Shown: piece by piece, positions 1,887 through 24,904 of the stretch
Position numbering within the stretch: position 1 is the stretch's first letter
Layout of the letters: every line of letters starts with the position of its first letter
Source of the DNA: Chthoniobacteraceae bacterium
GTDB lineage: Bacteria > Verrucomicrobiota > Verrucomicrobiia > Chthoniobacterales > Chthoniobacteraceae
Direction of reading: 5' to 3'
Length of the DNA stretch: 24,904 nt
Assembly: GCA_031409335.1 (NCBI GenBank)
Contig: JANNWY010000009.1
Location: forward strand, 1 to 24,904
Made by a program: the position numbers and the translations under genes
Notes under the pieces: generated by a model
Told to the model about the DNA's origin: nothing
The model's input: only the letters and a program-made list of their open reading frames with translations
Databases searched by the model: none

Positions 1887-4800
1887 CTAATCGAATCTCG
1901 CGAACCTTTCTCTGAACATCGGACGCGTGATGCCCGGTGCATACCGCGAGGGCAAGCGTGTCTTCCGCGTTCGCCCCGATACCCGCGTCGTTAGCGCTCG
2001 CAACATCGCCCCTGCCACCGGTTTTAGCTTTCCGATAAAGACGACGCAATCATTGCTGTCCTGCTTTGCTTGCACCGCGACAATCAAGAGCAAGCCCCTC
2101 TCCCGTAATCGGGAGAGAGGCTGTTGCTTTTGTCCGGAAGTATCGTTCTGCCAGGCGCGTACCCGCAGCGCGCAAGTGTCACTCACCGACGAATCCTCTG
2201 GTGAAGACACTGTAAGCATGATTCGGTGAATTCGCCGGTGCGGGACGCTGCTGTTCACTCCAACCTCCACTTTGATCGGGAGGTATTCCTCAGAGCCAAG
2301 TCCGTCAAAACGGTACTTTCCCTCGATTACCTGGGCCGTGATGTCCTCGCGACCGCGCAAATATCGCACGCTGAACTTTCCCGCGACGCGTGCAGTCCCG
2401 CGAACGAGCAGTGATGTTGGCTGGGCTCCCATGTTCTTCGGAGCATAGATCGCGGTGCGCTTTGTGCCGCGAGCCACATTGATGACAATTTCCTGCCCAG
2501 CAGCATCGTTGTTGATCACGCCCCAACCGACAAGGCGCGCGGCTGACATGCCGATTGCTCCATCGAGTTTGACGGTTTCGGTAATGGTAATTGTTGCGGG
2601 ATTGACCGCACCCAGAGTTGCGCCGTTCGTGGGATTCAACAACGTTGCAACGAACGTTTCGTCATTTTCGACTTCACTGTCGTCCGTTATCGGCACAAGA
2701 ACGTCTCTCTGCGTTTGTCCTTCTGCAAAAGCGACTGTGATTTCATCCACAGCAAAATCGTCAGCACTTGCGGTTCCCGGCGTGAGCCGAAGTGTTACGC
2801 TAGTTGCCTCCGTCCCAACGGTTCGGATAACTGGAATCGTCACGTCCGGTGTTCCCTCCACAACCCGGTAGGTTGACGAGCCGAATTCAATAACGCTTCG
2901 ACGTTCGGAGTTGAATACTGCCGTGATGTTCTTGCTAGTGTTCATCGTCACCTGTAGCGGGTTCTGGGCTCCGCTCGCATCTCCGCCCCAGCCCGTGAAC
3001 TGGTAGCCGTCGGCCGGCGTAGCGGTGAGCGCAACCACGGTCCCACTTTTGTAATTCGTCAGGTTCGGGCTCTTTGCCACCGTGCCGTTGATTGCGTTGA
3101 TGTTCAGGGTGTACCACTCGTCGACGTGAATGAAGCTCGCTGTGATGGCCTTATTGGCATTCATAGTCACCGAAAGCGGGTTCTGCATCCCGCTCGCATC
3201 GCCGCTCCAGCTACTGAATATGAATTTGATACCACTATTGCTCGGTATCGCTGTCACCGTGACAACGGTTCCATCCGCATACTTTCCGTCAGTGCCCGGC
3301 TGCGGATTAACTCCGATGCTCCCTCCCGTCGTCGGATTCAGATTCAGCGTGTAGCGCTGAGGCGAAGCATTGGTGATATTCCCAGTGCCACCGATCATTG
3401 CCCCCACGCCATCGAAGCTCGCGGTTCCGTTGAAGCTCCGCACACCGGCGGTGCCGACTGGCGGTGTCGCCCGATAGTTCAATGTCCGCGAGGTGTTATC
3501 GAAAAACGGCCCCCATTTCACCTTGCCGTTCACGGCATCCCAAACTCCACCGTTATCGATGTTGCTCACAGTCCACCCGATTGGCGGGGCGTCCTCGATA
3601 GCATATGCGGAAGTGCCAGCCGCCGGGCTCGCAGTAATCGCGATATTCACTGGGCTACCCGCCGCATAGGAAGAAGGAAGACCGCGAATTGCCGAAGCGG
3701 TTGACGCCGGGGCCAATGTAACCTGGCTTCGGGCGCTTTGCGCGGCCGCTGCGGACCCGGTCTGCCATGATAATGGTGCAGTCTGGCTGGAATCGTAATG
3801 ATAGAGCTCGCCGTTTTTCCACAGATACCCGGCTCGGGTCACATAGTTCACGTCGATCGGATTTGGAGACACCGGCCACGATGAACCTGTCTTCCACGCC
3901 GAGCCGTAGGCTGTGAGTTCATTGATCACGATTTGGAGGTCGTTATTCGTGTCAGTCGGGTGGAACTGGAGATTCGACTTGTCCAGCGAGCTGCCACCGT
4001 CGATAGGCGCGGATTGTCCGTCAAAGCTGGCGCTGCCCGCGAAGGTCTTCGCGCCGGTTTCGCCGATTGGCGGAGTCACCTGATACGTTAGCGTTCTCGC
4101 GGCGTTATCGAAGAACGGCCCCCATTTCACCTTGCCATTGACCGTGTCCAAGGTGCCGCCCTGTGAGATGTTGCTTACTGTCCAACTGGCAGGCGGCGCA
4201 TCTTCCACCGCATAACTCGACACTGACGCTGCCGGGTTCGCAGCAATCGCGACCGACAAGGCTGCGCCGGGCGCATAGCCAAATGAAGGCAATGTGCGCA
4301 TCGCTGAGCCCTTAACTTGTATCAAGATGTAAGGCCCCGTCGCCGCCGCCGTCTGGTTTGCGACTACTGCGATCGCCTGGTTGCCCGGCGTCGTCCATCC
4401 GGTGATTGCCTTGAACGCAACCGTGTGGTTGCCCGCCGACAATCCGTTCACCGTCGCGCCACTGCTCTGGAATGGCCCGCCGTCCACTTGCCATTGCGCC
4501 CCGGCATTCACCGCGTCCGCTGGTGTCAGCGTGACTCGCAGAGAGCCCGGCTGCGGAGTATTGAAATAGCCGCGGAAGACGGCCCAATCCCAGTTCACCG
4601 GGTCGGTATGATGGTGCAATCCGCCACCAAGTCCCGCGTTAGTCGGGTCCGGCACTTGATTGTGACCGATGATTCCAGAACCGCTCGCAGGACTCGCCAG
4701 CATGATCCCCGTCGGGAATGTCGTTGGGACACTGAAGCGTTGTTGGATCGACTTAACCAAATCCGCAGCAACCGAATACTGGATCGAAGTCGGTGTTTCA

Positions 4801-7150: not shown

Positions 7151-10100
7151 TTACCGTGCCCGGGCGCGATTCTTCGCAGCAGTCGCTTTCGCCGCTGCTT
7201 GATCGGCGCGGAGCGATTCACCAAGCAAACGCAGAATCTTTTCCGCGTGAAGGCAGACGCCTTCGTCTGATGGAAGGTGCGATATGCCGTATTCGTAGAG
7301 GAATTCCGCCCGCACGCGATCTGCTGGTTCACAAGCCCCCAAAGCGAGATGGACCAGCGGATGGGCGGGGTCAATCCGATAGGCCTTACGCGCCACGCTG
7401 GCGCACCGATCGAGTCCGCGTCTGTCGTCTGCCGACGGGTCGGCGGCACGCTGCGCAACGATCCAGTCAATTTCCCGTTCGATGTATTCCAAGACAGACG
7501 GTGATCCGTTCGGCGAAATCGTCCGTGCTCGCGGATCCGTCAGCACCCAGCGCATGGCCCGCGTCCATGCACCGCCATCGTCGCGGACACCAAGCAGCCA
7601 TTCCCGGTCACTTTGCCGTCGAACCGGTGTTAGCGAGCGTTCGTGGCCCTCACGAGTCAATTCGCGGCTCGCAAGCATCGCCAGAAGGCGCGGCACCCAG
7701 GTGGGGGCCGGGCCTTCCGGGATGCGATGTTCCCACAGGCGGGCGTCACCGTCTGCCCCGGCGGTCACAATCCAGCGGCCATCCGAACTGAAATTGGCGT
7801 CCCACGCTTCGCGACTCGTCGCGCTGGCAATGTCCACTGCCTGATCTTCGGCGTTCACGGCGCTCGCGTGGCAAAGAGGGGCACCCCACGGCGTTCCGGT
7901 TAGCCCGTCCCACAGCCGCGCGACGCCGTCAAATCCAGCCGTAAGGATGAGCCGACTATTCGGGCCGAAGGTGGCGCTGGAGACTTCCGAGCCATGCTGC
8001 AAGCCGATTTTACGACCGCTCTTCGGCTCCCAAAGCAGCGCTCCGGGATTGCCTTCAATCGAGCCTGCAAGCACGATGCGCGTGCCCTTTTCATTCGGAA
8101 CTGCACTCCGCAAATTGCCGCGATCCTGCTTCCATTCCGTGGCGATGGCTAAAGTGCGCGCATCCCACAGGCGAACGGTGAGATCCGAACACGCTGTCAC
8201 TATCCAGCGACCATCGGCACTGAAGCAGGCGCGTCGGACAGAATCTGGATGCACCAGCGGCGGCGAGGCCGGTTCCCCGGTCTTTGTGTCCCAGAGTCGC
8301 GCCGCGCCATCTTCACCGGAGGTGATTATGCGAGCGCCATCGGGACTAAATGCGACGCTCGTAACCTGTGCGTCGTGCAGCAGGCGCGGCTCGATCGCTT
8401 CGCCGGTCCTCGCATCCCAGAGCGTCGCCTCCGATCCGCTTGCAGTAACGATGCGGGTGCCGTCCGGGCTGAATTCCGCCCACATTACACGCTTGGAATG
8501 TCGCAGTGGCGCAAGCGCCGCTTGTCCGTTTTCGACATTCCACACCCGCACTCCGCCGTCCCAGGATGCCGTGAGTAAAAGTCGATTATCGGGACTGAAA
8601 ACGGCGCGTGTCACCGGGCCGTCGTGGTGGAATGTATTTTCTATGGATTGTCCCACAGACCAATCCCACAACCGCGCAGTGTGATCGTCGCTCGCGGTCA
8701 AAATCTGAAGCGCGTTGGCGCTAAATTCCACACTCCGAATCGCCCCCTCATGAAGCAACGGCAGCCCGAGCGGTTCACCACTCACGGCATCCCACACTCG
8801 CGCCGTGCCGTCCTCGGTTGCTGTGACGATCAGGCATCCATCGCCGCTGAATCGTGCGTCAATGACCGCGGATGCGTGTTGCAACGCAATCCCCAGTGCT
8901 TCTGAATCCCCGCCGCCACCAACGTGCCAGATCACCACCTTGCCATCGGTACATGCGGTCGCGATGCGTGTTCCGTCGGGAGAAAATGATGCGGCATTGA
9001 TCGTTGTGTCATGCTCAAGGGCCAGGCCTGAGACCTTGCAGGACACAGGGTCCCAGATTTGCGCCCGGCGGTCCGATATTGTCAGCACCTGCCGGCCATC
9101 ACGGCTGAAGCAGGCTCGCGAGACCGGATCATTGTGCGGCAGCAGCGGGCCAATTTGCGCGCCTGTTTCAGAGTCCCAGAATCGCGCTGATTTATCGGAA
9201 CTCGCACTGAGCATCCGCCGACCATCCGGGCTGAAAGCTACCGTGTTCACCGCATCTGCGTGCACCATTGATGGACCAACGGGCTGTCCATTACTGGTAT
9301 CCCACAAACGTGCTGTGTTGTCTTCTGAACCAGTGGCAAAACGGGTGCCATCAACGTTGAAGGCGATACTTGTCACGCGACCGCGATGACGGAGTGGGTC
9401 GCCGCGGAGTGTGCCGGTTGCGACGTTCCAAAGCCGCGCTGAACCATCGTTGCTTGCCGTGGCGACAAACCTGCCGTCCGGCGAGAATGCAGCAGCTACC
9501 ACTGCCGACTCGTGTTGCAATCGAGGACCGACGCTTTTACGAGTTCGTGAGTCCCACACCTGCGCGGTACCATCGGCACTGGCCGTTACGATGAATCGCC
9601 CATCTGGACTGAAAGCAGCCAGCCACACCCGATCGGCGTGTTGCAACGGTGGCTCAAGCGCCCATGGAGCGATCTGGTCTCGCGTACGAAGCAGTTGCGT
9701 ATAAGCCTCAGTCGCGGCCACACGACTGGTGGGATCTTTTGTCAGCGCGTCCGCCAGTTGCATGAACGCCACCTCGGGTCGCCCTTTCCTATCTCTCTCC
9801 ATTCGCGCCACCTCCACACTTTGCGCTGCGCTCCTCTGGTGCCGCGCCAGTTCCTCCCACTCGTGCCACACGGCAAACCCACCAAATGCCGCAATTGCGA
9901 TTCCTCCCGACCACGCCAACGTTCGATGGGTGCGAAGCCATCGCCGGGACAGAACCGACAGCCATGCTCCGCTCCCTCCGACTAACGGCCGTTCGCCCCG
10001 TCGCCAGCGCGCCAGATCATCAGCCAGCGCACCCGCCGTTTCGTAGCGAAATTTCGGTTCACGCGCGAGTGCCTTTAAGATGATTAACTCAATCGCGCGA

Positions 10101-11128
10101 TTGACACGCTCATTGGCCTCGCGCGGTCGCTTCGGCTCTTCTGTTGCGATACGATGCATCAGTTCCTCGCTTTTCCCCACCCCATACGGATGCTTTCCCG
10201 TGATTAGTTCATACAGAATCACCCCGAGGCTGAATACGTCGCTGGCTGGCTCGACCGCCTGACCACGCACCTGTTCTGGAGACATGTATTTTGGCGTCCC
10301 GACAACATGCCCGGTGCCAGTAAATACTTGATCAATCGCTTGATCATCGGCCAGCACCTTCGCGACGCCAAAATCCAAAACCTTGGGTTCGCCCGCAGCA
10401 GTAACCCGAATATTCGTTGGCTTGAGATCACGGTGAATAATCTTTTCGGAATGTGCATATTGCACTGCCCGACAAACTTTTTCCGTTAGCTCGATGATTT
10501 GATCGTGAGACAACTTCCGTTCCCGTACGTAATCCCCGAGGTCCTGACCCTCGATGTACTCCATCACAAAATACGGCACGCCTTCGCACTCACCTCCGTC
10601 GAAAATGCGTGCGAACTGCGAACACTGAAAACGTGCGGCCAATCGCATCTCCTGCTGAAAGCGCATAAATTGCGGAGAAGCACCGTCAAAGGAAACCCTC
10701 ACTCCCAGGCAAATCTTCACGGCCACCTGTTGCTCGGTCGCCGTTTGGAACGCGAGCCAGACTACACCCATTCCGCCTCGTCCAAGTTCCCGGACCATTT
10801 GATATCCGGGAATAGCAGGTGCAGAGGGTTCGGTTGCTTTGGCCGCAACTTCCGAACTGTTCATCGCGGCATCGAACATGCAACGCGGGCATACCCCGCC
10901 TATCGCGTCCGCGTCCAGGAGCACCCCGCAATAGGCGCACCGTGCAGGGTCCGCCGGCAAAGTGGTTGGATCACTTTCACTGGAGGAGTCTGCCTCGGAT
11001 CGGTTCATAATGAGAGGAGTGCGCCACCGCAGGCCCATTCGCCGCAGCGCGGCTCCGATCGTCAATTGAAAAATCGGGAAAATGCTACGAATTCCGTCCA
11101 AGCGCAGCGGAATTGGAGTGCGGTTCAT
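7151..11128 (-). CDS. Hanks-type Ser/Thr protein kinase with N-terminal Zn-ribbon, TM helix and ~15 WD40 repeats (alternative start ATG 11008)
   Basis: CAYC...CPRC; GRGGMGVV, VAVK, HRDLKPTN, DFG, GTPKYMSPE, DVFSLG all intact; TM LAWSGGIAIAAFGGFAVW; repeats of LxH...V..A.FSPDG...TAS.D..ARLWD. Confidence 0.96.
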   Translation of the reverse strand: MNRTPIPLRLDGIRSIFPIFQLTIGAALRRMGLRWRTPLIMNRSEADSSSESDPTTLPADPARCAYCGVLLDADAIGGVCPRCMFDAAMNSSEVAAKATEPSAPAIPGYQMVRELGRGGMGVVWLAFQTATEQQVAVKICLGVRVSFDGASPQFMRFQQEMRLAARFQCSQFARIFDGGECEGVPYFVMEYIEGQDLGDYVRERKLSHDQIIELTEKVCRAVQYAHSEKIIHRDLKPTNIRVTAAGEPKVLDFGVAKVLADDQAIDQVFTGTGHVVGTPKYMSPEQVRGQAVEPASDVFSLGVILYELITGKHPYGVGKSEELMHRIATEEPKRPREANERVNRAIELIILKALAREPKFRYETAGALADDLARWRRGERPLVGGSGAWLSVLSRRWLRTHRTLAWSGGIAIAAFGGFAVWHEWEELARHQRSAAQSVEVARMERDRKGRPEVAFMQLADALTKDPTSRVAATEAYTQLLRTRDQIAPWALEPPLQHADRVWLAAFSPDGRFIVTASADGTAQVWDSRTRKSVGPRLQHESAVVAAAFSPDGRFVATASNDGSARLWNVATGTLRGDPLRHRGRVTSIAFNVDGTRFATGSEDNTARLWDTSNGQPVGPSMVHADAVNTVAFSPDGRRMLSASSDKSARFWDSETGAQIGPLLPHNDPVSRACFSRDGRQVLTISDRRAQIWDPVSCKVSGLALEHDTTINAASFSPDGTRIATACTDGKVVIWHVGGGGDSEALGIALQHASAVIDARFSGDGCLIVTATEDGTARVWDAVSGEPLGLPLLHEGAIRSVEFSANALQILTASDDHTARLWDWSVGQSIENTFHHDGPVTRAVFSPDNRLLLTASWDGGVRVWNVENGQAALAPLRHSKRVMWAEFSPDGTRIVTASGSEATLWDARTGEAIEPRLLHDAQVTSVAFSPDGARIITSGEDGAARLWDTKTGEPASPPLVHPDSVRRACFSADGRWIVTACSDLTVRLWDARTLAIATEWKQDRGNLRSAVPNEKGTRIVLAGSIEGNPGALLWEPKSGRKIGLQHGSEVSSATFGPNSRLILTAGFDGVARLWDGLTGTPWGAPLCHASAVNAEDQAVDIASATSREAWDANFSSDGRWIVTAGADGDARLWEHRIPEGPAPTWVPRLLAMLASRELTREGHERSLTPVRRQSDREWLLGVRDDGGAWTRAMRWVLTDPRARTISPNGSPSVLEYIEREIDWIVAQRAADPSADDRRGLDRCASVARKAYRIDPAHPLVHLALGACEPADRVRAEFLYEYGISHLPSDEGVCLHAEKILRLLGESLRADQAAAKATAAKNRARAR

Positions 11129-13768: not shown

Positions 13769-16700
13769 TCATCTGACGCCTTTGTACCCATCCGGCTCGC
13801 TCACTACCCCAACAAACGAGTTCAATTTGAGCATTCGCGCGCTCTCAGTGGAAGTCTTCCGAATCGCTCCACTGCCGAGGAGCGTGCGCGCTCCTTCTGC
13901 TGATCCAAATTTCAGTCTCACTTGCATAGGCGCATCATAGAATCGGGTTACGCCACTTTGGGCGGAATCGACACCGGCGGCCGCGAGAATTGCATTCCGA
14001 TCGAAAGCTCCACTCACTCCTGCGGCTTTCGCATCCCAGATAACCGCGCGCATCCGGAGCCGGCTGGAATCCCAAGAGAAGCTCACATAACCAACCTTCC
14101 TCAAACGAGGCGATCCCGCAATCCCCGGTAGCTTCTCTGTGAGATAGAAGATCGCGCTCGGCTTTTTGGCATCGAATGGTTTGTGTCCCTGAGCGCGTCC
14201 ACCTCGACGCCCTGCGTCGTCGCCGAGCATTCCCGTAAAGCTGAAACCACCGATGGACACCGCAACGGGCATCCTTTCGTCGATTTCAGAGAAGGAAAAC
14301 GTGGAAAGATCTGCCACCAAGGTCGCGCGCAGCCAGTGCCGCGTCACGGGCTTCCCATATCGAATGGAACCCCCACTTCTGAAGACTGGCACCTTCTCCA
14401 GAAGAGTCTCGGTCAAGGTAAAAATCGGGGTGTACTGGTGATCACCGCCCCCGGCCAGGATATTGCGTCCCGAGATGGTTCCACCCGCGGAGTCCATGGG
14501 AGTTTCCATTTCTTGCGGAATCATCGCCACATCTGGAAGGTCCACAACGGCAGGTGGGGATTCGAGCGTCAGCGTTCCGCCGGCGCCAATGACAATGCTC
14601 TCAAACGTGCCGCCGGCGGTAGTCATCGATCCGCCGGGCGGCACGACAATGCTTGGGAGCGTAATTTGGAAGCTGCGATCCACGGGAGTGGCCGCGGCAT
14701 AGTTGGCGTTGCCCGTCTGTCGGGCACGGATCGTCACAGCACCGAGGCCGGTGAGGGTCACGGTGCTGCCGTTGATCGTTGCCGGACCGGAGATGCCGAG
14801 ATAACTCACAGGCAACCCGGAAGTGGCTGTGGCATTCAGCGTGAATGGGGCTGAGCCAATTACCCGATTGGAAAGAGCCGCAAAGCTTATCGTTTGCGGC
14901 GCTGGCTGGACGGTAAGGCTCGCCGCGTTGCTCGTCAGAGAGCCGTTCGACCATGTCACCACGACAGAGTAATTGCCCTCGTCGGCGTCTTTCAGATTAC
15001 TGAGGTTTAGAATCCTCGCCGTCGCGCCGGAAATCGTCGTGCCATTGGCATTAACGCCGTTGCTTAAATTCACGCCGTTGCGCCGCCACTGATAGCCTGT
15101 TCCAGTCAACGGCGTTCCAGCGACACCGACGGTAAAGCTCGCGTTGCCGAAAGCCACCTTCGAGAGATTCACCGGATGCGACGTGATTCCGTTGTAGCTC
15201 ACCGTGACCGTGACCGAATTTGGCGTCGGATGAGTGCTGTCGTTCATGGCGATGCTCTTGGCGGCTGGGGTGAGATACCCAGCCACGCTGGTAAAGGAAA
15301 TGGAAACCGGATTCGTAATGATATTTGTTCTCGTCACGCTGCTATTGTAGTTCATGCCCAGGTAGGTCCACTGCGCTGTGCTGGGCGCCAGATTTACTGT
15401 CAGTCTGGAAGTACCGCTCCCGAGAGAGCTATAGGTAATGGAAATTCCCCCGTCACCCTGATCGTCTCCAAGACCCCCCCCGATCTCAGCATTTTTGAAC
15501 AGTTCCAGGACGCCGCTGTCGATCGCGCGCACCACCGTCTGCCCCGTCCCGCCGAGAAATATCGCCGCAGGGTAGTAGGCACCGCCCTCGAACTGCACGC
15601 ACAGAGGACCGCCGGAGTTGCCATTGCCGCTGCGCATCGCAGTGGTCGAGTATGTAAAATCGTGCGCTTTTGTCAGCGCCGTGCTCACGGGTGGCGTGCC
15701 GTGCATCCGCCCGTAGTTATTGGAAAGGATCTCCGCCGCCGGATCGGTCGGATATCCCACCAGAGTTTTTAGCGCGGAGGACGTGAGCCATTCGTTTTGG
15801 ACCGAATCACTCGCGAGATAACCGCTGTAGCCGCCGCGGCCCGCGTCTTCGAGGAAATAGACTGCCGCGGCATCGAGGTTCTGTGACACGGGTGAGCTTT
15901 GGCCGGGCGTGTTTTCCAGTTCCCGTCGCTCCGCGTAGCTCGTAAAAAGATGAAAACCCCGCGGAATCTGCGGTGCGGGTTCGTAGTTGCCTTTGTCGCG
16001 CTGGAAAAGCCACTGCAAGCCGGTCGCCGCCGAGAGCGTCCCGTCGTCGAAGACGACATGCGCCGCGGTCGCCACCACGTGCGCCTTCACCACAAAGCCG
16101 CTCCCAGCCCCCACGTCGCTGCGGAGCTGCCCCACCCATTGGTAAGGCAGGCCGGGGCTTGTCGTCACCGTGTCATAAGAGAGCACTCCCGGCACCACGC
16201 CCGACTGCGTTGGAGCCAGATAGTAGATCGCTGTCGCCGGAGTGGTATCGTTCTCGATCACATTCACCGAGATCGGAGTAGGAGTCGTTCGGGCAGGCGT
16301 GATTCCTGATAGCGGCTTGAATTCCACCAGATAAGTTCCCGGCGCCAATTCCGAGAGCGTCGTCCCGCTATCGCGCCATTGCGGGTCATTCTCGCCGAGC
16401 AAGCGCCACTGCGCGCGCTGATTCACGGGAAGTGTCTGGGTTGTCAATGAGTCAGGCTTGATGGTGATCGTCATCCCACCATTGGCTTCACCACCACTTG
16501 CGGCAAGATACTCAGCCATCACGAACGTTGCCTCTCCGCCGCTGATGATCGTTACCGGCTCCGGCGAAGGTGTGACACGGCCCGGGACCGGGCGAAATTC
16601 GATCACTCGGTCACTCGTTGTCAGTCCAAACACCGGCACTCCTGAAGATCGCCACTGCTGCTCGCCCGCAAAGCGCCATCCTGCGCCGACGAGTCCGTTG

Positions 16701-19700
16701 GGCAGCACTGTTACAATGGCGCCGCCCTGCCGGTCTTCGATTGGCACCGCCGTTGGGGTCTGCTGGAGGAAGCCCGAAATCCCGTCCAGATTGAACTGCG
16801 CCAGACCGCCCGGTTCCGACACCCCGCCCGCACTCATCCCCCGCACCTGGTAGTAATAGGTCACACCTGCCGTCAGGTTAACTAGGTCCGCCGTTACCGG
16901 CGTAACCGCATCGCCCGTTACCAAGGCCGGCGCCGCGGATATCCAAGTGAAGTTCGAACCATCGGTGCTGTAGCCGAATTCGACTGACGCATTCGAGTTG
17001 CGCGCCCGCACCGTCCCATTTACTCGCGCGCTCGTCGTCGTCAGCGCAAAACTCCCGCCCACCGTGGCAATCGGCGCGATCAGCGTCGTGAAGCTCGCCG
17101 TGCCGCTCACCGCCGTCCCTCCCGCGCTCGTCGCCCTGATCCGATAGGAGTACGTCGTCCCCGTGGTCAGTCCGGCCACCGCCGCACTCACCGACACCGG
17201 CGCATTCCCCGTCACCGTCCCTGGCACTGCAGGCACCGAGTTTGGGAAGCTGTTCCCATCCGTGCCCCACTCAAAGGTCACTGTCGCATTATAGTTTCGC
17301 GCGTTCACCGTGCCATTGAAGCGCGCGCTCGTCGGCGCGATCTCGCTCGCTAGGCTGATCGCCACTACCGGTTCTGCCAACGTAGAAAAACTCGCCACCA
17401 GGCTGACCATCGTCCCAGCGCTGCTCACCGCGCGGAAGCGGTAGTAGTAGGTCGTGCCGGGCGCCAAAGCATCCAGCGTGGTCCCGACTAGCGTCGTTTG
17501 GTAGCCGGTCAGATTGATCGCGATGGGCACGACGTTTGGGAAATTCGCTCCGTCGGTCCCGTATTCGAGCGACACCGTTGTCGCCGCTCCACGTGCATTG
17601 ACCCTGGCCTCGACTATGGCACCCGCACCGCCTTGGGTCACGGCCTTCCCCGTGACAACCAGCGGTGCGCCGGGGAATATCAGCCGGTAGACAGTTCCAT
17701 CGCCCCCAACTGTCGTTCCGTAGAGATTTCCATCGGCAGCCGCGATGAGGCCCGCCATTGGAAGACCACCCTCCGAGAACGAAAGAAACTCCCAGACGGT
17801 CGTCAGCACGCCCGCAGGCGTCATCTTGAACACAGTGCCAGCGTTATTCGCGCCGCCAAATCGGGTTGTCCCGTAGAAGTGGCCGTCGCTGCCCTCCACC
17901 AACGACGCATACGGACCTTGGCCCTTGTTCGCCCCACCAAACTCCACCAAGGTCGTCAACACGCCCGCAGAGGACATCTTGAACACCGTGCCACTGTCGT
18001 TCGCGCCACCTTGGTCCGTGGTCCCGTAAAAGTGGCCGTCGCTGCCCTGCACCAACCCAGCATAAGGGTTACTGCCCTTGTTCGCTGCCCCATTACCAGT
18101 GAACTCCACGAGAGTTGTCAGGACGCCCGCGGGCGTCATCTTGAACGCCGTGCCAAGGCCATTCGCGCCGCCGGCTATAGTCGTCCCGTAGAAGTGGCCG
18201 TCGCTCCCCTCCACCAGCGCCCCATAAGGGCCGCTGCCTTTGTAAGGCGCCGCGTTGCCGGTGAATTGCAACAAAGTCGTCAGCAACCCCTCAGCCGTCA
18301 TCTTGAACACCGCACCAAATTGGTTCGCGCCGTGGTAATAAGTCGTCCCGTAGAAGTTGCCATCGCTGCCCTCCACTAACCCCGCATAAGGTTGACGGGG
18401 CCCGGCTGCAGTGAACTCCACTAGTGTCGTCAGCACGCCAGCAGTCGTCATCTTAAACACTGTGCCACGTTCCGCCGCGCCGCCAAACTCGGTCGTCCCG
18501 TACAAGTTTCCGTCGCTGCCCTCCACCAGCGCCGCATTAGGAAATCGCCCCTTGTTCGCCCCCCCGAATTCCACCAACGTCGTCAGCACGCCACCTGGCG
18601 TCATCTTGAAGACCGTGCCGATGCCTTCAGAACCAAACGTGCCTCCCGAGTGAGTCGTCCCGTAGAAGGTGCCATCACTTCCCTGCACCAACGGCGCATA
18701 AGGCTGACTGCCTGTGCTCAACGCACCGCTGCCCGTGAACTCCACCAAAGTCGTCAGCGTGCCCGCAGCCGTCATCTTGAATACGGTGCCAAAGTTGTTC
18801 GCGCCGCCTTGTTCCGTCGTCCCGTAAAAGCTGCCATCGCTACCTTGAATCAACGGAGCCCAAGGAACTTCACCCTTGTTCGACGCCCCGTTGCCAGTGA
18901 ACTCCACCAAGGTTGTCAGCACGCCCGCAGCCGTCATCTTGAACACCGTGCCAAGGTTGTTCGCGCCGCCGTTTGAAGCCGTCCCGTAAAAGTTGCTGTC
19001 ACTGCCCTGCACCAACGCCGCGAGTGGAAAACGCCCCTTGTTTAACGCCCCATTCCCGGTGAACTCCACCAACGTCGTCACCCCACCGGTAGGCGTCATT
19101 TTGAACACCGTGCCAACACCGATCGCGCCGCCTTGTTCCGTCGTCCCGTAGAAGTTGCCGTCGCTGCCCTGCACCAACCCCGCAAAAGGGCGGCTGCCCT
19201 TGTTCGATGCCCCATTGCCGGTGAATTCCACCAAGGTCGTTAACACGCCCGCAGGCGTCATTTTAAACACAGTGCCAAGATTGTTTGCGCCGCCCGCTTT
19301 AGTCGTCCCGTAGAAGTTGCCGTCGCTACCCTCCACCAACGCCGCAAAAGGCTGACGGCTCTTGTTCGACGCCCCGTTGCTGGTGAACTCTACCAAAGTC
19401 GTCAGCACGCCTCCCGGCGTCATCTTGAACACTGTTCCAAAGTTACTCGCGCCCCCGAATTCGGTTGTCCCGTAGAAGTTGCCCTCGCCGCTTTGCACCA
19501 GTGCCGCGGCAGGAGACCTTCCCTTGTTAGACGCCCCGTTTCCTGTGAACTCCACTACGGTCGTCATAACGCCCGCAGGCGTCATTTTGAACACCGTGCC
19601 AAAACCGATCGCGCCGCCTTGTTCCGTCGTCCCATAGAAGTTGCCGTCGCTGCCCTTTACCAACGCCGGAACAGGAAGTCGGCGCGGGCTCGATGCTCCA

Positions 19701-19999
19701 TTGCCTAACTCAACAAGAGTGGTCACCGCGCCCGAAGGGGTCATTTTGAACACCGTGCCTGAATCATTCGCGCCGCCGAAGTAAGTCGTGCCGTAAAAGT
19801 TGCCGTCGCTGTCCTGCACCATCGCTGCACGAGGGGCCTTTCCCTTGTTGGCAGCTTCGGCCTCCCGCGCTTGTCCGAAGTCGAACATCTTCTCATACAC
19901 CTGCCCCGAAGCCGAGGGAGCCCACACCGGAAACGAGAGGCCAAGGACCAGAACGATCCGACCGAAAACCGCCCGCAGGCGCATAAGATTCTGACTCAT
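13769..19999 (-). CDS. Giant secreted protein (~2076 aa): 14 GloVer (Gloeo_Verruco) repeats, 3 Fn3-like domains, PEGA-like domains, trypsin-like serine protease, Ig domain, C-terminal domains
   Basis: Signal peptide after ATG 19999 (MSQNLMRLRAVFGRIVLVLGLSFPVWAPSASG). Repeats LVxGSDGNFYGTTxxGGAxxxGTVFKMTPxG. Protease triad ATAAH / NLDAA / GNSGGP (~15500-16150). Ig-like YQWRRNG...DEGNYSVVV. Confidence 0.93.
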   Translation of the reverse strand: MSQNLMRLRAVFGRIVLVLGLSFPVWAPSASGQVYEKMFDFGQAREAEAANKGKAPRAAMVQDSDGNFYGTTYFGGANDSGTVFKMTPSGAVTTLVELGNGASSPRRLPVPALVKGSDGNFYGTTEQGGAIGFGTVFKMTPAGVMTTVVEFTGNGASNKGRSPAAALVQSGEGNFYGTTEFGGASNFGTVFKMTPGGVLTTLVEFTSNGASNKSRQPFAALVEGSDGNFYGTTKAGGANNLGTVFKMTPAGVLTTLVEFTGNGASNKGSRPFAGLVQGSDGNFYGTTEQGGAIGVGTVFKMTPTGGVTTLVEFTGNGALNKGRFPLAALVQGSDSNFYGTASNGGANNLGTVFKMTAAGVLTTLVEFTGNGASNKGEVPWAPLIQGSDGSFYGTTEQGGANNFGTVFKMTAAGTLTTLVEFTGSGALSTGSQPYAPLVQGSDGTFYGTTHSGGTFGSEGIGTVFKMTPGGVLTTLVEFGGANKGRFPNAALVEGSDGNLYGTTEFGGAAERGTVFKMTTAGVLTTLVEFTAAGPRQPYAGLVEGSDGNFYGTTYYHGANQFGAVFKMTAEGLLTTLLQFTGNAAPYKGSGPYGALVEGSDGHFYGTTIAGGANGLGTAFKMTPAGVLTTLVEFTGNGAANKGSNPYAGLVQGSDGHFYGTTDQGGANDSGTVFKMSSAGVLTTLVEFGGANKGQGPYASLVEGSDGHFYGTTRFGGANNAGTVFKMTPAGVLTTVWEFLSFSEGGLPMAGLIAAADGNLYGTTVGGDGTVYRLIFPGAPLVVTGKAVTQGGAGAIVEARVNARGAATTVSLEYGTDGANFPNVVPIAINLTGYQTTLVGTTLDALAPGTTYYYRFRAVSSAGTMVSLVASFSTLAEPVVAISLASEIAPTSARFNGTVNARNYNATVTFEWGTDGNSFPNSVPAVPGTVTGNAPVSVSAAVAGLTTGTTYSYRIRATSAGGTAVSGTASFTTLIAPIATVGGSFALTTTSARVNGTVRARNSNASVEFGYSTDGSNFTWISAAPALVTGDAVTPVTADLVNLTAGVTYYYQVRGMSAGGVSEPGGLAQFNLDGISGFLQQTPTAVPIEDRQGGAIVTVLPNGLVGAGWRFAGEQQWRSSGVPVFGLTTSDRVIEFRPVPGRVTPSPEPVTIISGGEATFVMAEYLAASGGEANGGMTITIKPDSLTTQTLPVNQRAQWRLLGENDPQWRDSGTTLSELAPGTYLVEFKPLSGITPARTTPTPISVNVIENDTTPATAIYYLAPTQSGVVPGVLSYDTVTTSPGLPYQWVGQLRSDVGAGSGFVVKAHVVATAAHVVFDDGTLSAATGLQWLFQRDKGNYEPAPQIPRGFHLFTSYAERRELENTPGQSSPVSQNLDAAAVYFLEDAGRGGYSGYLASDSVQNEWLTSSALKTLVGYPTDPAAEILSNNYGRMHGTPPVSTALTKAHDFTYSTTAMRSGNGNSGGPLCVQFEGGAYYPAAIFLGGTGQTVVRAIDSGVLELFKNAEIGGGLGDDQGDGGISITYSSLGSGTSRLTVNLAPSTAQWTYLGMNYNSSVTRTNIITNPVSISFTSVAGYLTPAAKSIAMNDSTHPTPNSVTVTVSYNGITSHPVNLSKVAFGNASFTVGVAGTPLTGTGYQWRRNGVNLSNGVNANGTTISGATARILNLSNLKDADEGNYSVVVTWSNGSLTSNAASLTVQPAPQTISFAALSNRVIGSAPFTLNATATSGLPVSYLGISGPATINGSTVTLTGLGAVTIRARQTGNANYAAATPVDRSFQITLPSIVVPPGGSMTTAGGTFESIVIGAGGTLTLESPPAVVDLPDVAMIPQEMETPMDSAGGTISGRNILAGGGDHQYTPIFTLTETLLEKVPVFRSGGSIRYGKPVTRHWLRATLVADLSTFSFSEIDERMPVAVSIGGFSFTGMLGDDAGRRGGRAQGHKPFDAKKPSAIFYLTEKLPGIAGSPRLRKVGYVSFSWDSSRLRMRAVIWDAKAAGVSGAFDRNAILAAAGVDSAQSGVTRFYDAPMQVRLKFGSAEGARTLLGSGAIRKTSTESARMLKLNSFVGVVSEPDGYKGVR
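17690..19850 (-). repeat. 14 tandem GloVer repeats, mostly ~180-nt period
   Basis: 14 counted (F/L)YGT(T/A) cores; recurring DNA words such as gtcccgtagaagttgccgtcgctgccct and gtcatcttgaacaccgtgcc. Confidence 0.93.
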
Positions 20000-20134
20000 G
20001 GGATTTGGGTTCTTGGGGGTTTCTGTTTTCCGCCCCCGTTTTTCGCACAAAGCGGTGGCGAAGACGACAAGAAAGCCGCCGTGCAAGTCGTTTGTGGAAG
20101 TGACCCGCGGTGCATCGGAAGTGCGTTTGCTTTT

Positions 20135-20224: not shown

Positions 20225-20638
20225 CTATGCCCCGACCGGCAGCATCCAGTCTTCGACGCGCAGTCCTTCGACGCGGTTGAATTCGCCGGTGTTGGAAGTG
20301 ACGAGCGTGTGATCGTGCGCAAGGCAGATGGCGGCGATGAGCAAATCGTGCGGACCGATGCACTGCCCGGCGGATTCGAGCCGGTGCCGCAGTTCGCCAT
20401 AACGCTCCGCGGCGGCATCGTCGAAAGGCAGCGAGGTGTAAGGCGCAAGCGTTTGCGCGACGAGGGCGAGGCGCCGCTCAGGCTGGCCGTATTTACTCGC
20501 CCCGTGGAGGAGTTCGGCGCGGACGACCGAGCAGGAGACGATTTGCGCCGGGGAGTGGAGCGAGAGCCGGTGCCGAACGGGGCTTTGGGAATTCTTGAGG
20601 TAGTGAATCCACGCGTTGGTATCGAGCAGGAACGCCAT
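20225..20638 (-). CDS. vapC: VapC-family PIN-domain toxin, 137 aa
   Basis: MAFLLDTNAWI, VVRAELLHGA, IGPHDLLIAAICLAHDHTLVTSNTGEFNRVEGL; TAATG overlap with the upstream antitoxin. Confidence 0.95.
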   Translation of the reverse strand: MAFLLDTNAWIHYLKNSQSPVRHRLSLHSPAQIVSCSVVRAELLHGASKYGQPERRLALVAQTLAPYTSLPFDDAAAERYGELRHRLESAGQCIGPHDLLIAAICLAHDHTLVTSNTGEFNRVEGLRVEDWMLPVGA

Positions 20639-20880
20639 TACCAAGTCTCCCGAACTTCAAACTCCCCCTCTGGCGGACGCTCAAACGGCTCCCCCGCCAG
20701 CGCCCCCGCCAGCGCCCCCGCCGTCGCCTCGAAATAACCCGGCGGCCACCCCTGCGCGGCGCTTTCCCGACGGGACTCCGCCAGAGCGAGAGCCTCGCGG
20801 ATGAGCTTTTCGACGTGCGCCTGGGCGGCGGGGTCGAGGCTTTGCAGGCGGGCGTGGAGTTCAGCGGCGATGGTGCTCAT
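20638..20880 (-). CDS. Putative antitoxin (VapB-like), 80 aa
   Basis: Small gene coupled to vapC; acidic C-terminus WPPGYFEATAG...FERPPEGEFEVRETW. Confidence 0.8.
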   Translation of the reverse strand: MSTIAAELHARLQSLDPAAQAHVEKLIREALALAESRRESAAQGWPPGYFEATAGALAGALAGEPFERPPEGEFEVRETW

Positions 20881-20974: not shown

Positions 20975-21343
20975 TCATCGGGGCGGAGGAGAAGTGAGCC
21001 GTGAGCGGATTTTCGCCGCGAGGGCGGTGACGTTTTCGAGCTGTGCGCGGAGGGCGGGCCAGTCGGGATCTTCGAGATCGAAGCCGGGGTAACGATCGCT
21101 GAAGTAAGCCTCGGCGAGGGTGTCGCAGAGGGGGCGGATTTCGGCAATGAGGTCGGACTTCCGCACGGCGAGATAGCCGCCGAGTTTGCGCAGATCGTGG
21201 GTCTTTTCGAGAATCCAGCCGAGACGGATCAATTCGGCTTTCATCACCTTTTCGAGCAGCTCTGCGAGCTTGCTGCGGCAGAGGACATAGCTCAGCTCGC
21301 GCTCGACGCCCACGCTGAGAAGCTCCAGATCGGATTCGTCGAT
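20975..21343 (-). pseudogene. HEPN-domain gene, 5'-truncated by the RIT-type element
   Basis: IDESDLELL...EKVMKAELIRLGWILEKTHDLRKL...DRYPG. The frame hits TAA at 21346-21344 inside the element-associated palindrome and has no ATG-started N-terminus. Confidence 0.8.
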
Positions 21344-21369
21344 TTATGTGGAGCTCCACATAAATCGAC
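21338..21369. repeat. Perfect 32-bp palindrome at the element-host junction
   Basis: gtcgatttatgtggag|ctccacataaatcgac. Confidence 0.97.
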
Positions 21370-21460
21370 TAATGTGGAGTGCTCAATAATGTGGAGTTGG
21401 GCGGCGGGGGCTTGTGCTGGCGGGCTTGGGGCGGGGGTTGGACTTCACATTATTGACGGG
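21370..21460 (+). repeat. Left terminal inverted repeat (91 bp)
   Basis: 89/91 identical to the reverse complement of 24814-24904; contains TAATGTGGAG at 21370 and 21387 and inverted CTTCACATTA at 21443. Confidence 0.97.
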
Positions 21461-21504
21461 GGTGCCGCGGCTTTGTCTGCTGGCCGAATGACCTAACTTT
21501 ATCC

Positions 21505-23787
21505 ATCCTCACTCAACTCCGGCCTCAATCCCATCTCCGTTGGCGGGCTTTGCCGGTCTTCGGTTCCATCCTTGATGACTTTGTGCGCTGGCTGCATGTG
21601 GAGCGCGGTTACACGCGGGCGACGGCGAGCGTTTATTTGAATGGGGTGTCCGGGGTGGTGCGGTGGTTGCGGCGGCGGGGGATCGAGTCTCTTTCGGGAT
21701 TGACCCTGCGGGATTTGCAGGCGGCGCATTGCAGCTTCCTTGGCCGCAACCCGACGGCGAGAAATGCGGCTCGCACCCTGGAGCTGTTTTTGCGGGCCAA
21801 CGGAAAAGTCGCGGAAGGTGCGTTGCCGATCCCATCTCCGACCGAGATGGAGCTTGCGCGTTTCGCTGCCTACCTATGCGAAACTTGCGGGCTTTCGAGG
21901 GTGACGATCCGGGGGCATCGGCAACGGGTTGGGGCATTCCTGAAGTTCCTGCGTTTCGAGCATAACCCGGCGCGCTTGAGCCAGCTTCGGTCACGGGACA
22001 TTGATGCGTTTCTGCGTCAGGCTGCGCGGACGAACTGCCGTTTGAGCATGGTGCATTTTGTGGCTTCGGTGCGTGCCTTCCTGCAATGGCGTTATGCCGG
22101 GGGAAAGCTGGCGGAGCCTCTCCATCAGCGGATCGACACGCCGCGAATCTGGCGCGGAGAACGGTTGCCGCGGGCTCTTCCGTGGGAGCAGGTACAGGCG
22201 CTGCTGGGTTCGATCGCGCGGTGCGGCCGCTGCGGACAGCGGGACTTTGCGCTGCTCTATCTGGCGGCGGCGTATGGGTTGCGCAGCGGGGAACTCGTGG
22301 CTTTGAAACTCGATGATATCGACTGGCAAGCCCGCACGCTGCGGGTGAGGCAGAGCAAGACGCGGCAGGCGCTGCTGCTTCCTCTTACTGATGAGGCGGC
22401 GACGGTGCTGATCGGCTATCTGCGCGAGGGTCGTCCGCACAGCGCGCATCGCGAGTTATTCCTGCATGCGACTGCGCCGCGAGGGCCGTTACAACCAACG
22501 GCGGTGCATGCGGTGATGGCTCGCCGGATGGGTGCCAGCGGCCTGGATCTGCCAGCCTGCGGAGCGCACGTCCTGCGGCATTCCTTTGCCATGCGGATGA
22601 TGCAGGAGGGTGTGGCTATCAAAGGGATCGCGGAGGTGCTGGGCCATCGGGATATGGAAAGCACGTCGGTCTATCTGCGTCTGGCGGTGGACGACTTGCG
22701 CGAGGCGGCCCAGCCGGTGCCGTCCGCGGAGCCATGCGGTGTTGCCGTAGAGTTAGTCGCCTCGAAAAGCCTTCCGCGGATCAGAGCTGCTCGTCCACTA
22801 CTCCGACTGTCAGCACGCTTTCAAAGCTGGCTCGCGCCATCCCTTCAGCGCTACGTGGATCTCAAGCGAGCGCTGGGCCGCATCTTTACTGGTGAAGCTT
22901 CGGTGTTGGGACAATGGGACGACTTTGTGCAACGCGAGTATCCGCGTTCCAGAAAAGTGCGCGGCTATATGTTTGCGGAATGGACCAGGGAACTCCGCCG
23001 CATGAGTCCCACCAGCCAGCGCATCTATCAATGCCGTGTCCGGAGCTTCCTTGTCTTTTACGCCCGCGATCACGCCGGCACCTTCATCCCTGACTTGCTC
23101 ACTTTCCCAAAGTCAGTCCCCGTCGTCGCTCCGCGTCTCATCACTCCGGCGGAGATGGGTCGCCTGCTCGCCGCGACCCGGCAGCTTCCCCGCACGCCCA
23201 GCCATCCCCTGCGCGCGGAAACCATCCGCATCGGGGTGCTCCTGCTCTTCTGCTGCGGGCTGCGGCGCGGCGAACTCCTGCGCCTTCGCCTCGGCGATTT
23301 TGAGGCCGGAGAAACCGTGCTCCGCATCCGGCTCACCAAGTTCTACAAGTCCAGACTCGTTCCGCTCTCGCCGTCCGTTTCCCTCGAGATCAGACGCTAT
23401 CTCGATCAGCGACGCAGCGGGAAAGCGCCCGCCTCCGCAGAGTCATTCCTCCTGTGGAGCCCGCGGTCGTCGGAAGTCTATTGCGCCACACAGCTAGTCA
23501 ATCTTTGGCATCAGCTCTGTGTGAGCGCCGGCGTGCTGGATCGTCGCGGCCATCCGCCCCGGCTGCATGATTTGCGACATAGCTTCGCCGTCAATGCGCT
23601 GCAGCGCTGGTATGCGCAGGGCGCGGACGTCCAGGCCATGCTCCCGCATCTCGCCACCTATCTGGGCCACGCCAATGCCGCGAGCACCCACTACTATCTA
23701 ACACTCACTCCAGAGCTTGGCGCAGCCGCCAGCGAACGCTTCCGCCAGCGCTTCGCCGCACTCTTCAACACCGGAGGCCTCGCGTGA
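21505..23787 (+). CDS. Double tyrosine recombinase (RitA-RitB fusion); start uncertain (ATC 21505 or TTG 21550)
   Basis: Domain 1: GLRSGE...HVLRHSFA...LGHRDMESTSVY. Domain 2: GLRRGE...HDLRHSFA...LGHANAASTHYY. One uninterrupted frame. Confidence 0.93.
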   Translation: MLTQLRPQSHLRWRALPVFGSILDDFVRWLHVERGYTRATASVYLNGVSGVVRWLRRRGIESLSGLTLRDLQAAHCSFLGRNPTARNAARTLELFLRANGKVAEGALPIPSPTEMELARFAAYLCETCGLSRVTIRGHRQRVGAFLKFLRFEHNPARLSQLRSRDIDAFLRQAARTNCRLSMVHFVASVRAFLQWRYAGGKLAEPLHQRIDTPRIWRGERLPRALPWEQVQALLGSIARCGRCGQRDFALLYLAAAYGLRSGELVALKLDDIDWQARTLRVRQSKTRQALLLPLTDEAATVLIGYLREGRPHSAHRELFLHATAPRGPLQPTAVHAVMARRMGASGLDLPACGAHVLRHSFAMRMMQEGVAIKGIAEVLGHRDMESTSVYLRLAVDDLREAAQPVPSAEPCGVAVELVASKSLPRIRAARPLLRLSARFQSWLAPSLQRYVDLKRALGRIFTGEASVLGQWDDFVQREYPRSRKVRGYMFAEWTRELRRMSPTSQRIYQCRVRSFLVFYARDHAGTFIPDLLTFPKSVPVVAPRLITPAEMGRLLAATRQLPRTPSHPLRAETIRIGVLLLFCCGLRRGELLRLRLGDFEAGETVLRIRLTKFYKSRLVPLSPSVSLEIRRYLDQRRSGKAPASAESFLLWSPRSSEVYCATQLVNLWHQLCVSAGVLDRRGHPPRLHDLRHSFAVNALQRWYAQGADVQAMLPHLATYLGHANAASTHYYLTLTPELGAAASERFRQRFAALFNTGGLA

Positions 23788-24800
23788 AAACGAACCCATC
23801 AGCCACCCTTGCCCTGACGCTGCGCGGCTTCTTCACCGACTATCTACCCCGCCAGCGCGCGCTCAGTCCCCACACCCTTCTGAGCTATCGCGACAGCCTC
23901 AAGCTATTGCTCAAGTTCGCCGCCGGAAAGAAAGGCGATCCCAGCCAGCTCACCGTGGAGCATCTTACCGTCGAAAAGATCACCGCATTCCTGCAAAGCC
24001 TCGAAAGCGCCCGGCACAACAGAGTTAGCACCCGCAATGTCCGCCTTAGCGCCATCCATAGCTTCTTCCGCTATCTCGGTGGAGAGCATCCCGGGCATCT
24101 GGCGCAGGTCCAGCGCATCCTCGCCATCCCCTTCAAACGCACCGGCACCCGCGAAATCGCCCACCTCGACTTCGAGGAAATCCAAGCCGTGCTTACCGCC
24201 GTGGAAGTCGCACGCCCAAACGGCCACCGCGACCTCGCACTCCTGAGCCTTATGTTCAACCTCGGCGCACGCGTCAGCGAAATCACCGGCCTGCACACCG
24301 ACGACCTTCGCCTGACCGCACCCAGCAGCGTCCTGCTCCGGGGAAAAGGCCGCAAAGAGCGCACCTGCCCGCTCTGGCCCGAAACCGCGCGTCTCCTCCA
24401 AACCCTCATCGACCGGCGCGGCCTCCCGTCGAACCAGTCCGCACCCGTGTTCCTCAACGCCCGCGGCGGACGGCTCACCCGCTTCGGCGTGCGCACGATC
24501 CTCCACAAATACATCGTCAAAGCAGCCCGGCAGAAACCGTCCCTCAGCAACAAGCGCCTCCACCCGCACTCGCTCCGGCACAGCACCGCCATCCATCTCC
24601 TGCGCTCGGGAGTCGATCTCAGCACCATCGCCCACTGGCTCGGCCACGCCAGCATCAACACCACCCACAAATACCTCGCCATCGACCTCGAGGCCAAACG
24701 GGAGGCCCTCGCCAAGGCAAAACCCTTGCTCAAAAAAACCCGCCACCTCGCCGACTGGCGCAAGGATCCAAACCTGATCGCCTGGCTGGAAGCGCTCTGA
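23784..24800 (+). CDS. Tyrosine recombinase (RitC-like), 338 aa
   Basis: SPHTLLSYRDSLKLLL, GARVSE, GKGRKER, HSLRHSTA, LGHASINTTHKY; GTGA overlap with the upstream gene. Confidence 0.95.
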   Translation: MKTNPSATLALTLRGFFTDYLPRQRALSPHTLLSYRDSLKLLLKFAAGKKGDPSQLTVEHLTVEKITAFLQSLESARHNRVSTRNVRLSAIHSFFRYLGGEHPGHLAQVQRILAIPFKRTGTREIAHLDFEEIQAVLTAVEVARPNGHRDLALLSLMFNLGARVSEITGLHTDDLRLTAPSSVLLRGKGRKERTCPLWPETARLLQTLIDRRGLPSNQSAPVFLNARGGRLTRFGVRTILHKYIVKAARQKPSLSNKRLHPHSLRHSTAIHLLRSGVDLSTIAHWLGHASINTTHKYLAIDLEAKREALAKAKPLLKKTRHLADWRKDPNLIAWLEAL

Positions 24801-24813
24801 GACGCGGAATCGG

Positions 24814-24904
24814 CCCGTCAATAATGTGAACTCCAACCCCCGCCCCAAGCCCGCCAGCACAAGCTCCCGCCGCCCAACTCCACATTATTGAGCACTCCAC
24901 ATTA
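24814..24904 (-). repeat. Right terminal inverted repeat (91 bp), ending at the last base of the window
   Basis: Reverse complement of 21370-21460 with 2 mismatches. Confidence 0.97.

What the first reader, a model, noticed from the sequence alone, without database searches (positions are those of the whole stretch)
21505..23787. RIT element with RitA and RitB fused into one protein with two complete active sites
Seen: a single 745-760 aa ORF with two full R...HxxR...H...Y sets joined by a ~35-aa linker (QPVPSAEPCGVAVELVASKSLPRIRAARPLLRLSARF), followed by a coupled RitC-like gene. Known: canonical RITs encode three separate overlapping recombinases, and tyrosine recombinases act as tetramers. 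Inference: the long linker suggests an evolved fusion rather than a frameshift. It would fix A:B at 1:1 and suggests that A and B act as a heterodimer, which is a handle on the poorly understood RIT mechanism.
Basis: partly seen in the sequence, partly recalled or inferred. Interest (0 to 1): 0.75.

Follow-up and report, generated by a model that had tools for sequence, protein, structure and literature searches.

The report
Natural single-chain twin recombinase transposon
This 3.5-kb element belongs to a lineage of 'recombinase-in-trio' jumping genes whose first two DNA-cutting enzymes are joined into one protein with both active sites conserved, which likely makes them work as a fixed pair and would make the untested way these elements move easier to test.

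Summary
Confirmed. One open frame (21550-23787) holds a RitA and a RitB recombinase, each with a full R-K-H-R-H-Y set, joined by a linker of about 32 residues; ritC follows with a 4-bp overlap. Contigs of four runs (two studies) cross the junction without a gap, so it is no artefact.

The fusion is a family trait: 250 junction-spanning relatives, 83 of 85 fetched loci fused, members down to 29% identity. Both active sites are under purifying selection (dN/dS 0.16 and 0.18; linker 0.46). A single origin is not rejected (AU p 0.89).

The element is 3,535 bp with 91-bp inverted ends. Relatives land mostly in Walker-B codons and usually carry a 20-bp palindrome 6 bp outside one end, in the pattern X-[element]-reverse X-palindrome-X. 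That points to a circle with a palindromic joint (inferred).

That A and B act as a 1:1 pair is inferred, not shown. I found no fusion in the papers I could read; the main RIT survey (Ricker 2013) was not held. This scan noted the same fusion before on another genome (e1-7761499). Verdict: new variant of a known kind.

The parts
21370..24904 (+). Whole two-gene RIT-type element, 3,535 bp
   Evidence: Bounded by the inverted ends; 40 of 44 relatives with both ends measure 3,525-3,547 bp
21370..21460 (.). Left terminal inverted repeat: two direct boxes (TAATGTGGAG) and one inverted box about 44 bp further in; likely recombinase binding sites
   Evidence: binding is inferred
24814..24904 (.). Right terminal inverted repeat; the contig ends here and G000:C284 continues it with a 141-bp overlap
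21550..23787 (+). RitA-RitB fusion gene, 745 aa from the TTG; the true start is likely about 19-20 codons upstream
21550..22722 (+). RitA half: two helical core-binding domains and a catalytic domain; catalytic Tyr375 at 22672-22674
   Evidence: 40-46% identical to the first gene of five annotated plasmid trios
22723..22818 (+). Linker, about 32 residues, Pro-rich then Arg-rich; almost no regular secondary structure in the model
22819..23787 (+). RitB half: one core-binding and one catalytic domain; catalytic Tyr716 at 23695-23697
   Evidence: 36-41% identical to the second gene of the same trios
23784..24800 (+). ritC, 338 aa, full catalytic set, conserved C-terminal extension
21344..21363 (.). 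20-bp palindrome made of two end-like boxes (TTATGTGG-AGCT-CCACATAA); it likely travels with the element
   Evidence: absent from an uninterrupted homologue of the target gene in run X4
21364..21369 (.). Inner 6-bp spacer ATCGAC between palindrome and element; reverse complement of the outer 6-mer
21338..21343 (.). Outer 6-mer GTCGAT, the likely crossover overlap with the target
   Evidence: role inferred
20975..21343 (-). 3' part of a HEPN-domain gene cut by the insertion
   Evidence: Pfam HEPN; a homologue in run X4 runs on past 21342 into coding sequence without the palindrome

Best explanation
This is a RIT-type mobile element from a lineage in which RitA and RitB are fused into one chain with two conserved active sites, which likely act as a tethered 1:1 pair, likely together with RitC, to move the element by Xer-like site-specific recombination. 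Shown: the fusion, both catalytic sets, selection on both, the ends, the palindrome pattern and the target preference. Inferred: the linker runs from A's catalytic domain to B's DNA-binding domain and holds the two at neighbouring places in the four-subunit recombination complex, which would favour A-B pairs over A-A or B-B pairs. Inferred: the moving unit is the element plus spacer plus palindrome. It would close into a circle whose joint reads end-reverse X-palindrome-X-end, and would cross over at the 6-bp X with a target of the form hydrophobic codons-Asp|Glu (Walker B). That puts an element end against the front half of the target and the palindrome against the back half, as seen. The element body, flanked by X and reverse X, would be able to invert. 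Which subunit binds which half-site is not known.
For: Four runs cross the junction without a gap. 250 proteins match the junction; of the 120 listed, 104 are 700 aa or longer. Among 105 full-length sequences 9 of the 12 catalytic positions are invariant; His340 is His in 95 (Asn 6, Gln 4); His707 and Tyr716 are kept in 102, with 3 gaps. All 17 distant fusions checked (22-56% identity) keep both sets, two with Tyr for A's first His, and have 46-56 residues from A's Tyr to B's first helix. dN/dS over 22 non-overlapping pairs: A catalytic 0.16, B catalytic 0.18, linker 0.46; ATG is never among the common linker codons and start-type codons are scattered. ritC has a full catalytic set in 60 of 60 complete copies. 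Palindrome-side inner 6-mer equals the reverse of the outer one in 25 of 41 ends, against a shuffled mean of 2.1 and maximum of 8; the full pattern holds in 12 of 21 elements with one palindrome. Front flanks end in an Asp codon in 37 of 50, and the base pair after X on the palindrome side is G then A in 37 and 38 of 41 (near-copies not removed). Complex prediction, fusion residues 190-745 with RitC: weak support, 0.44 against best control 0.00; the mark was reached by 116 of 157 solved and 2 of 215 mismatched pairs, but at 0.60 or under by only 18 solved pairs and both mismatches; runs agree in at least 74% of contacts, partner pLDDT at least 76; it may reflect likeness to solved recombinase oligomers. 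An engineered parallel exists: fusing two Cre-type monomers with a 24-residue linker enforced heterodimers (PMC8776779, passages).
Against: Nothing here shows activity, expression or an A-B interface. The folded model is confident per domain but less so overall (pLDDT 85.5, pTM 0.63). Linker sequence is not conserved among distant members, only its length and basic character. Unfused trios are the rule: no fused copy among 400 other genomes of the phylum, 2 among 150 of the family. 16 of 41 palindrome ends break the reverse-X rule; 8 of 34 elements show no palindrome by my test and 4 show two, several with identical flanks at both ends, so assembly collapse at the long repeats blurs these counts and may explain the 11:10 left-right split. 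In the window the far 6-mer does not match the outer one, and the two flanks belong to different genes. The junction search covered residues 330-520, so conservation of H340-Y375 is partly circular; R245, K270 and all of site B lie outside it.
Confidence: 0.6

Rival explanations
1. The fusion only fixes dose and location: A and B are tethered but work at different sites or steps, each in its own complex.
For: Linker sequence drifts among distant members; overall model confidence is modest (pTM 0.63); most RITs persist unfused; each insertion has three junctions, which could be shared among three enzymes.
Against: Linker length stays within 46-56 residues down to 22-29% identity and 48-52 in the core family, which suggests a distance constraint. 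Fusions without a linker are scattered and mostly garbled.
Confidence: 0.25
2. One half has become a non-cutting DNA-binding or scaffold subunit and keeps its motifs only for structure.
For: A's first His is replaced in 10 of 105 close and 2 of 17 distant members. Three enzymes are more than a four-strand exchange needs (PMC3414803, section 11).
Against: The catalytic Arg, Lys, Arg, His and Tyr are kept in both halves in every sequence that covers them, and dN/dS is the same for both catalytic domains.
Confidence: 0.08
3. The gene is fused but the working proteins are not: B is made from an internal start, or the linker is cut.
For: The linker is extended and exposed in the model. GTG stands at codon 390 in 25 of 58 sequences.
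Against: Codon 390 is the Val of RitA's terminal LPVP motif and is a start-type codon in only 28 of 58; no linker position holds a conserved start codon.
Confidence: 0.05
4. The fusion is an assembly error or a recent one-off frameshift.
For: Such cases exist in other RIT lineages: linkerless A-B and B-C joins, mostly single sequences with garbled stretches, scattered across the trees.
Against: Independent runs agree; 83 of 85 loci are fused; the matching stretch of the nearest unfused plasmid trio is about 100 bp shorter (2,135 against 2,235 bp), so sequence was added.
Confidence: 0.01

Closest known systems
RIT (recombinase in trio) elements, ritA-ritB-ritC; archetype Rmet_1271-1273 of Cupriavidus metallidurans CH34 (PMC10214605, PMC3414803)
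   Same: Order A-B-C on one strand, about 3.5 kb, inverted ends, catalytic Tyr in all three units, 4-bp overlap before ritC, two core-binding domains in A. The 20-bp palindrome is also beside unfused RITs.
   Different: A and B are one reading frame with an added linker; ends are 91 bp against the 28-34 bp quoted for the archetypes.
Unfused plasmid RITs of Bradyrhizobium, Mycetohabitans, Paraburkholderia, Ensifer and Rhizobium (L130-L134)
   Same: Nearest annotated relatives: A 40-46%, B 36-41%, C 44-48% identical; they group with the fusions in both trees (98 and 99); four of five lie beside IS21 genes.
   Different: Separate A and B genes with a 4-bp overlap or an 11-bp gap, and no linker.
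XerC/XerD (recalled) and solved XerA, XerD, XerH, lambda Int and Cre structures
   Same: Same fold and catalytic set; two different subunits around a 6-bp overlap is the inferred model.
   Different: Separate polypeptides; all matches shown cover one recombinase unit only (targets 266-356 residues).
RecF8, an engineered linked heterodimer of Cre-type recombinases (PMC8776779)
   Same: Two active tyrosine recombinases in one chain, linked to enforce a heterodimer.
   Different: Man-made; the present protein is natural, with a 32-residue Pro/Arg linker.
SEs, GInts and Tn554 (PMC10214605, Table 1)
   Same: Mobile elements with several tyrosine recombinases; SEs carry 6 bp of flank in their circles.
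   Different: Different gene sets with an accessory protein; no fused double recombinase in the passages read.

Membership tests
RIT element | Three separate, adjacent, overlapping recombinase genes | tested here: not met
   Two genes: the A-B fusion and ritC. Filed as a derived two-gene variant, not a canonical member.
RIT element | Three recombinase units of distinct subfamilies in the order A, B, C | tested here: met
   Each part's best match is the first, second and third gene of annotated trios and of the trio in G000:C14
RIT element | RitA has two core-binding domains | tested here: met
   Two helical bundles (residues 5-84, 97-201) before the catalytic domain; unfused RitA proteins match profile positions 7-415; feature from PMC8138268
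RIT element | RitC has an extra conserved C-terminal helix | tested here: inconclusive
   C-terminal W334, L335, L338 invariant in 39 sequences; RitC's secondary structure was not read out
RIT element | Catalytic motif with Tyr in all three units | tested here: met
RIT element | About 3.5 kb with terminal inverted repeats | tested here: met
   3,535 bp, 91-bp repeats
RIT element | Moves as a unit | not testable with these tools
   Indirect only: the same ends against unrelated target genes. Listed as not tested for RITs in PMC10214605.
Tyrosine recombinase (Xer-like) | R-K-H-R-H/W-Y catalytic set in the lambda-Int fold | tested here: met
   Twice in the fusion
Tyrosine recombinase (Xer-like) | Cleaves DNA through a phosphotyrosine in a four-subunit synapse | not testable with these tools
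   Needs biochemistry

The most novel reading that the evidence does not exclude
A natural single-chain heterodimeric tyrosine recombinase: RitA-RitB fills two neighbouring places of the recombination complex with both sites cutting, and with RitC it moves a unit that includes a 20-bp palindromic adaptor, through a circle or hairpin joint, into Walker-B codons. The fusion and the end pattern together would give the first workable model of RIT transposition and a natural scaffold for linked designer recombinases.
Probability: 0.45. Interest if true: 0.8.

Novelty: new variant of a known kind. Interest (0 to 1): 0.6.

Why it matters
How three tyrosine recombinases share a four-strand exchange is an open question (PMC3414803, section 11), and RIT movement and target choice are listed as untested (PMC10214605, Table 1). 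The fusion reduces the system to two polypeptides and says which two units belong together. The end and target rules give exact substrates for an assay. A natural chain with two live tyrosine-recombinase sites also offers an evolved linker for a problem that engineers solved by selection (PMC8776779).

Tried and rejected
Stop-codon read-through as the route to the fusion: three genomes have RitA and RitB in one frame split by a single TGA, but they are not the sister group in any tree. Rejected.

A 565-579 aa RitB family whose extra N-terminus resembles RitA's core-binding region (hhalign 94.5%, against 2.6% for RitB) first looked like a fusion that had lost A's catalytic domain. A 458-aa RitB with a similar extension sits between intact first and third genes on a plasmid, so it does not show that A's site is dispensable. 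The viral scan gave matches to the RitB part only.

The palindrome as a pre-existing target feature: rejected, because targets are coding sequence and an uninterrupted homologue lacks it.

A second assembled copy in G000: none found. Contig depth in X1 was 19.8 on the element and 10.8 on the flank, but the tool says depth is no copy number, so this is a hint only.

Expression: no RNA holder listed.

Fold search gave single-unit recombinases only. The search of earlier scan notes by sequence gave nothing.

Literature: eight searches listed no paper on a fused RIT; 'fused' and 'fusion' occur 0 times in the main text of PMC8138268, PMC3414803 and PMC10214605. Ricker et al. 2013 was not held.

The first script for element ends had a wrong pattern and found nothing; it was redone.

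Full report
Observation. The frame is open from 21460 to 23787 and gives 745 aa from the TTG at 21550. Pfam finds two integrase catalytic stretches. Both carry a full set: R245 K270 H340 R343 H366 Y375 and R572 K597 H673 R676 H707 Y716. ritC follows with a GTGA overlap. The inverted ends of 91 bp define a 3,535-bp element. The window is the whole contig G000:C9; C284 continues it.

Not an artefact. Contigs cross the A-B junction without a gap in X1 (0 other letters over 21413-24638; possible source), X2, X3 and, from another study, X4 (46 other letters in 749). These are assembled contigs, not raw reads.

A family trait. A search with residues 330-520 found 250 proteins among 2,728 candidates; 104 of the 120 listed are 700 aa or longer. 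Of 85 fetched loci (5 genome, 80 metagenome) 83 are fused. The other two break inside RitB, not at the junction: a frameshift at residue 475 and a stop near residue 435. The 80 were the best of 215, ranked against the whole fusion, so this count leans towards fused forms. Named carriers are four Verrucomicrobiota MAGs and one 3.3-kb contig of a Solirubrobacterales MAG. The fusion is uncommon: none in 400 other genomes of the phylum, 2 of 150 in the family, and none among the 30 plasmid rows listed of 275. A profile search reached fusions down to 29% identity, and one at 22%. A search for stand-alone RitB relatives returned mostly fragments of fused proteins.

Both sites are kept. In 105 full-length sequences nine of twelve catalytic positions are invariant, His340 is kept in 95, and the last two B positions in 102 with three gaps. 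All 17 distant fusions keep both sets, two with Tyr for A's first His. From 58 unique coding sequences (61 before duplicates were dropped) I took 22 non-overlapping pairs: dN/dS is 0.16 for A's catalytic domain, 0.18 for B's and 0.46 for the linker. The stretch from A's Tyr to B's first helix is 48-52 residues, and no linker position holds a conserved start codon. The model shows two core-binding domains and a catalytic domain, an extended linker, then one core-binding and one catalytic domain (pLDDT 85.5, pTM 0.63).

Origin. In trees of the A and B halves the 26 linker fusions form one side of a branch with weak support (61 and 75), next to unfused proteobacterial plasmid RITs. With the nearest unfused RitA proteins added, the free tree needs three changes (P0376 left out). 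The tree that holds all 17 fusions together is not rejected and has the higher likelihood (p-AU 0.89). One origin is therefore allowed, not shown.

Ends and targets. A 20-bp palindrome of two end-like boxes lies 6 bp outside the left end (21344-21363). The same arrangement lies beside most RITs examined, fused or not. Among fused elements with both flanks, 22 of 34 have one palindrome, 4 have two and 8 none. The inner 6-mer is the reverse of the outer in 25 of 41 ends (shuffled mean 2.1); the pattern X-[element]-reverse X-palindrome-X is exact in 12 of 21. Plain flanks end in an Asp codon in 37 of 50; palindrome flanks mostly go on with Glu or Asp codons, as in Walker-B motifs (motif names recalled). 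Here the right flank is a TrwB/HerA-type ATPase gene cut at its Walker-B motif and the left flank is the back half of a HEPN gene. A homologue of that gene in X4 is whole and has no palindrome. The two flanks belong to different genes, so the assembly likely joins halves of two copies, or a rearrangement followed. Palindromes at RIT ends are mentioned briefly in PMC3414803 and PMC5737581, without this pattern in the passages I read.

Mechanism. Inferred from these patterns and from general knowledge of Xer and Cre: a circle with a palindromic joint crosses over at a 6-bp overlap with the target. A-B works as a tethered pair and RitC joins it. The complex prediction gave weak support (0.44 against 0.00; at this level more often wrong than right unless likely beforehand, and possibly from likeness to solved oligomers). 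The main rival is that the tether fixes only dose and location.

Start codon. 61 of 77 relatives have an in-frame ATG about 19-20 codons upstream of the TTG position; 14 have it out of frame, often before a run of A; 2 have none. The window has the out-of-frame form, as do its two closest fetched relatives, while the upstream codons still match the family motif. Slippage or an unusual start is likely; reduced expression of this copy cannot be excluded.

What I read. PMC3414803: passages and all of section 11. PMC8138268, PMC5737581, PMC10214605, PMC8776779: passages. Others: search listings only. Ricker 2013: nothing, not held. No supplements were read; the datasets of PMC8138268 could list fused proteins. 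The claim of novelty rests on eight searches and is limited by these gaps.

Verdict. Real, evolved and a coherent sub-lineage of RITs; a new variant of a known kind; interest 0.6.

Noticed in passing
G000:C49:15942-15961 (L049): A lone 20-bp palindrome of the same type joins two back halves of ATPase genes head to head, both starting at a Walker-B IDEFH motif: likely a scar of RIT activity.
   Followed up: partly
G000:C14 (L047:1167-4464): A canonical three-gene RIT in the same genome, with 32-bp inverted ends and its own 20-bp palindrome beside one end.
   Followed up: yes
window 21488-21549; L050-L054, L056, L060, L061, L063, L064, L075, L103, L115, L120: The ATG of the fusion gene is out of frame in 14 of 77 relatives, often just before a run of 5-8 A: possible slippage control of expression.
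   Followed up: partly
L036-L039 (G189, G225, G321): RITs with RitA and RitB in one frame split by a single TGA. G189 (one contig) has two copies of about 5 kb with the same palindrome at two similar target sites.
   Followed up: partly
P0250-P0271 (16 aligned), L144: A RitB family of 565-579 aa with about 250 extra N-terminal residues resembling RitA's core-binding region and a single catalytic domain; genomic context not found.
   Followed up: partly
P0240; P0237, P0241, P0249, P0260: Linkerless fusions in other RIT lineages: a clean A-B join (730 aa, 6 members) and four B-C joins.
   Followed up: partly
L128, L129: A 2,863-bp deletion form of the fused element in which RitB is cut and joined in frame to RitC.
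   Followed up: no
window 20225-20880 (-): A PIN-domain gene and a small upstream gene, likely a VapBC-type toxin-antitoxin pair, just downstream of the cut HEPN gene.
   Followed up: no
window 13769-20086, 7151-11128, 1887-6338 (-): Large ORFs read by eye only: a repeat-rich secreted protein of about 2,100 aa, a Ser/Thr kinase with WD40-like repeats next to an ECF-sigma-like gene, and an amidase/fibronectin-like surface protein.
   Followed up: no
run X2/X3 loose end at window 21368: In other contigs a palindrome of this type is followed by the end of a different RIT (TTATGCCG boxes), so different RITs may share or reuse it.
   Followed up: no
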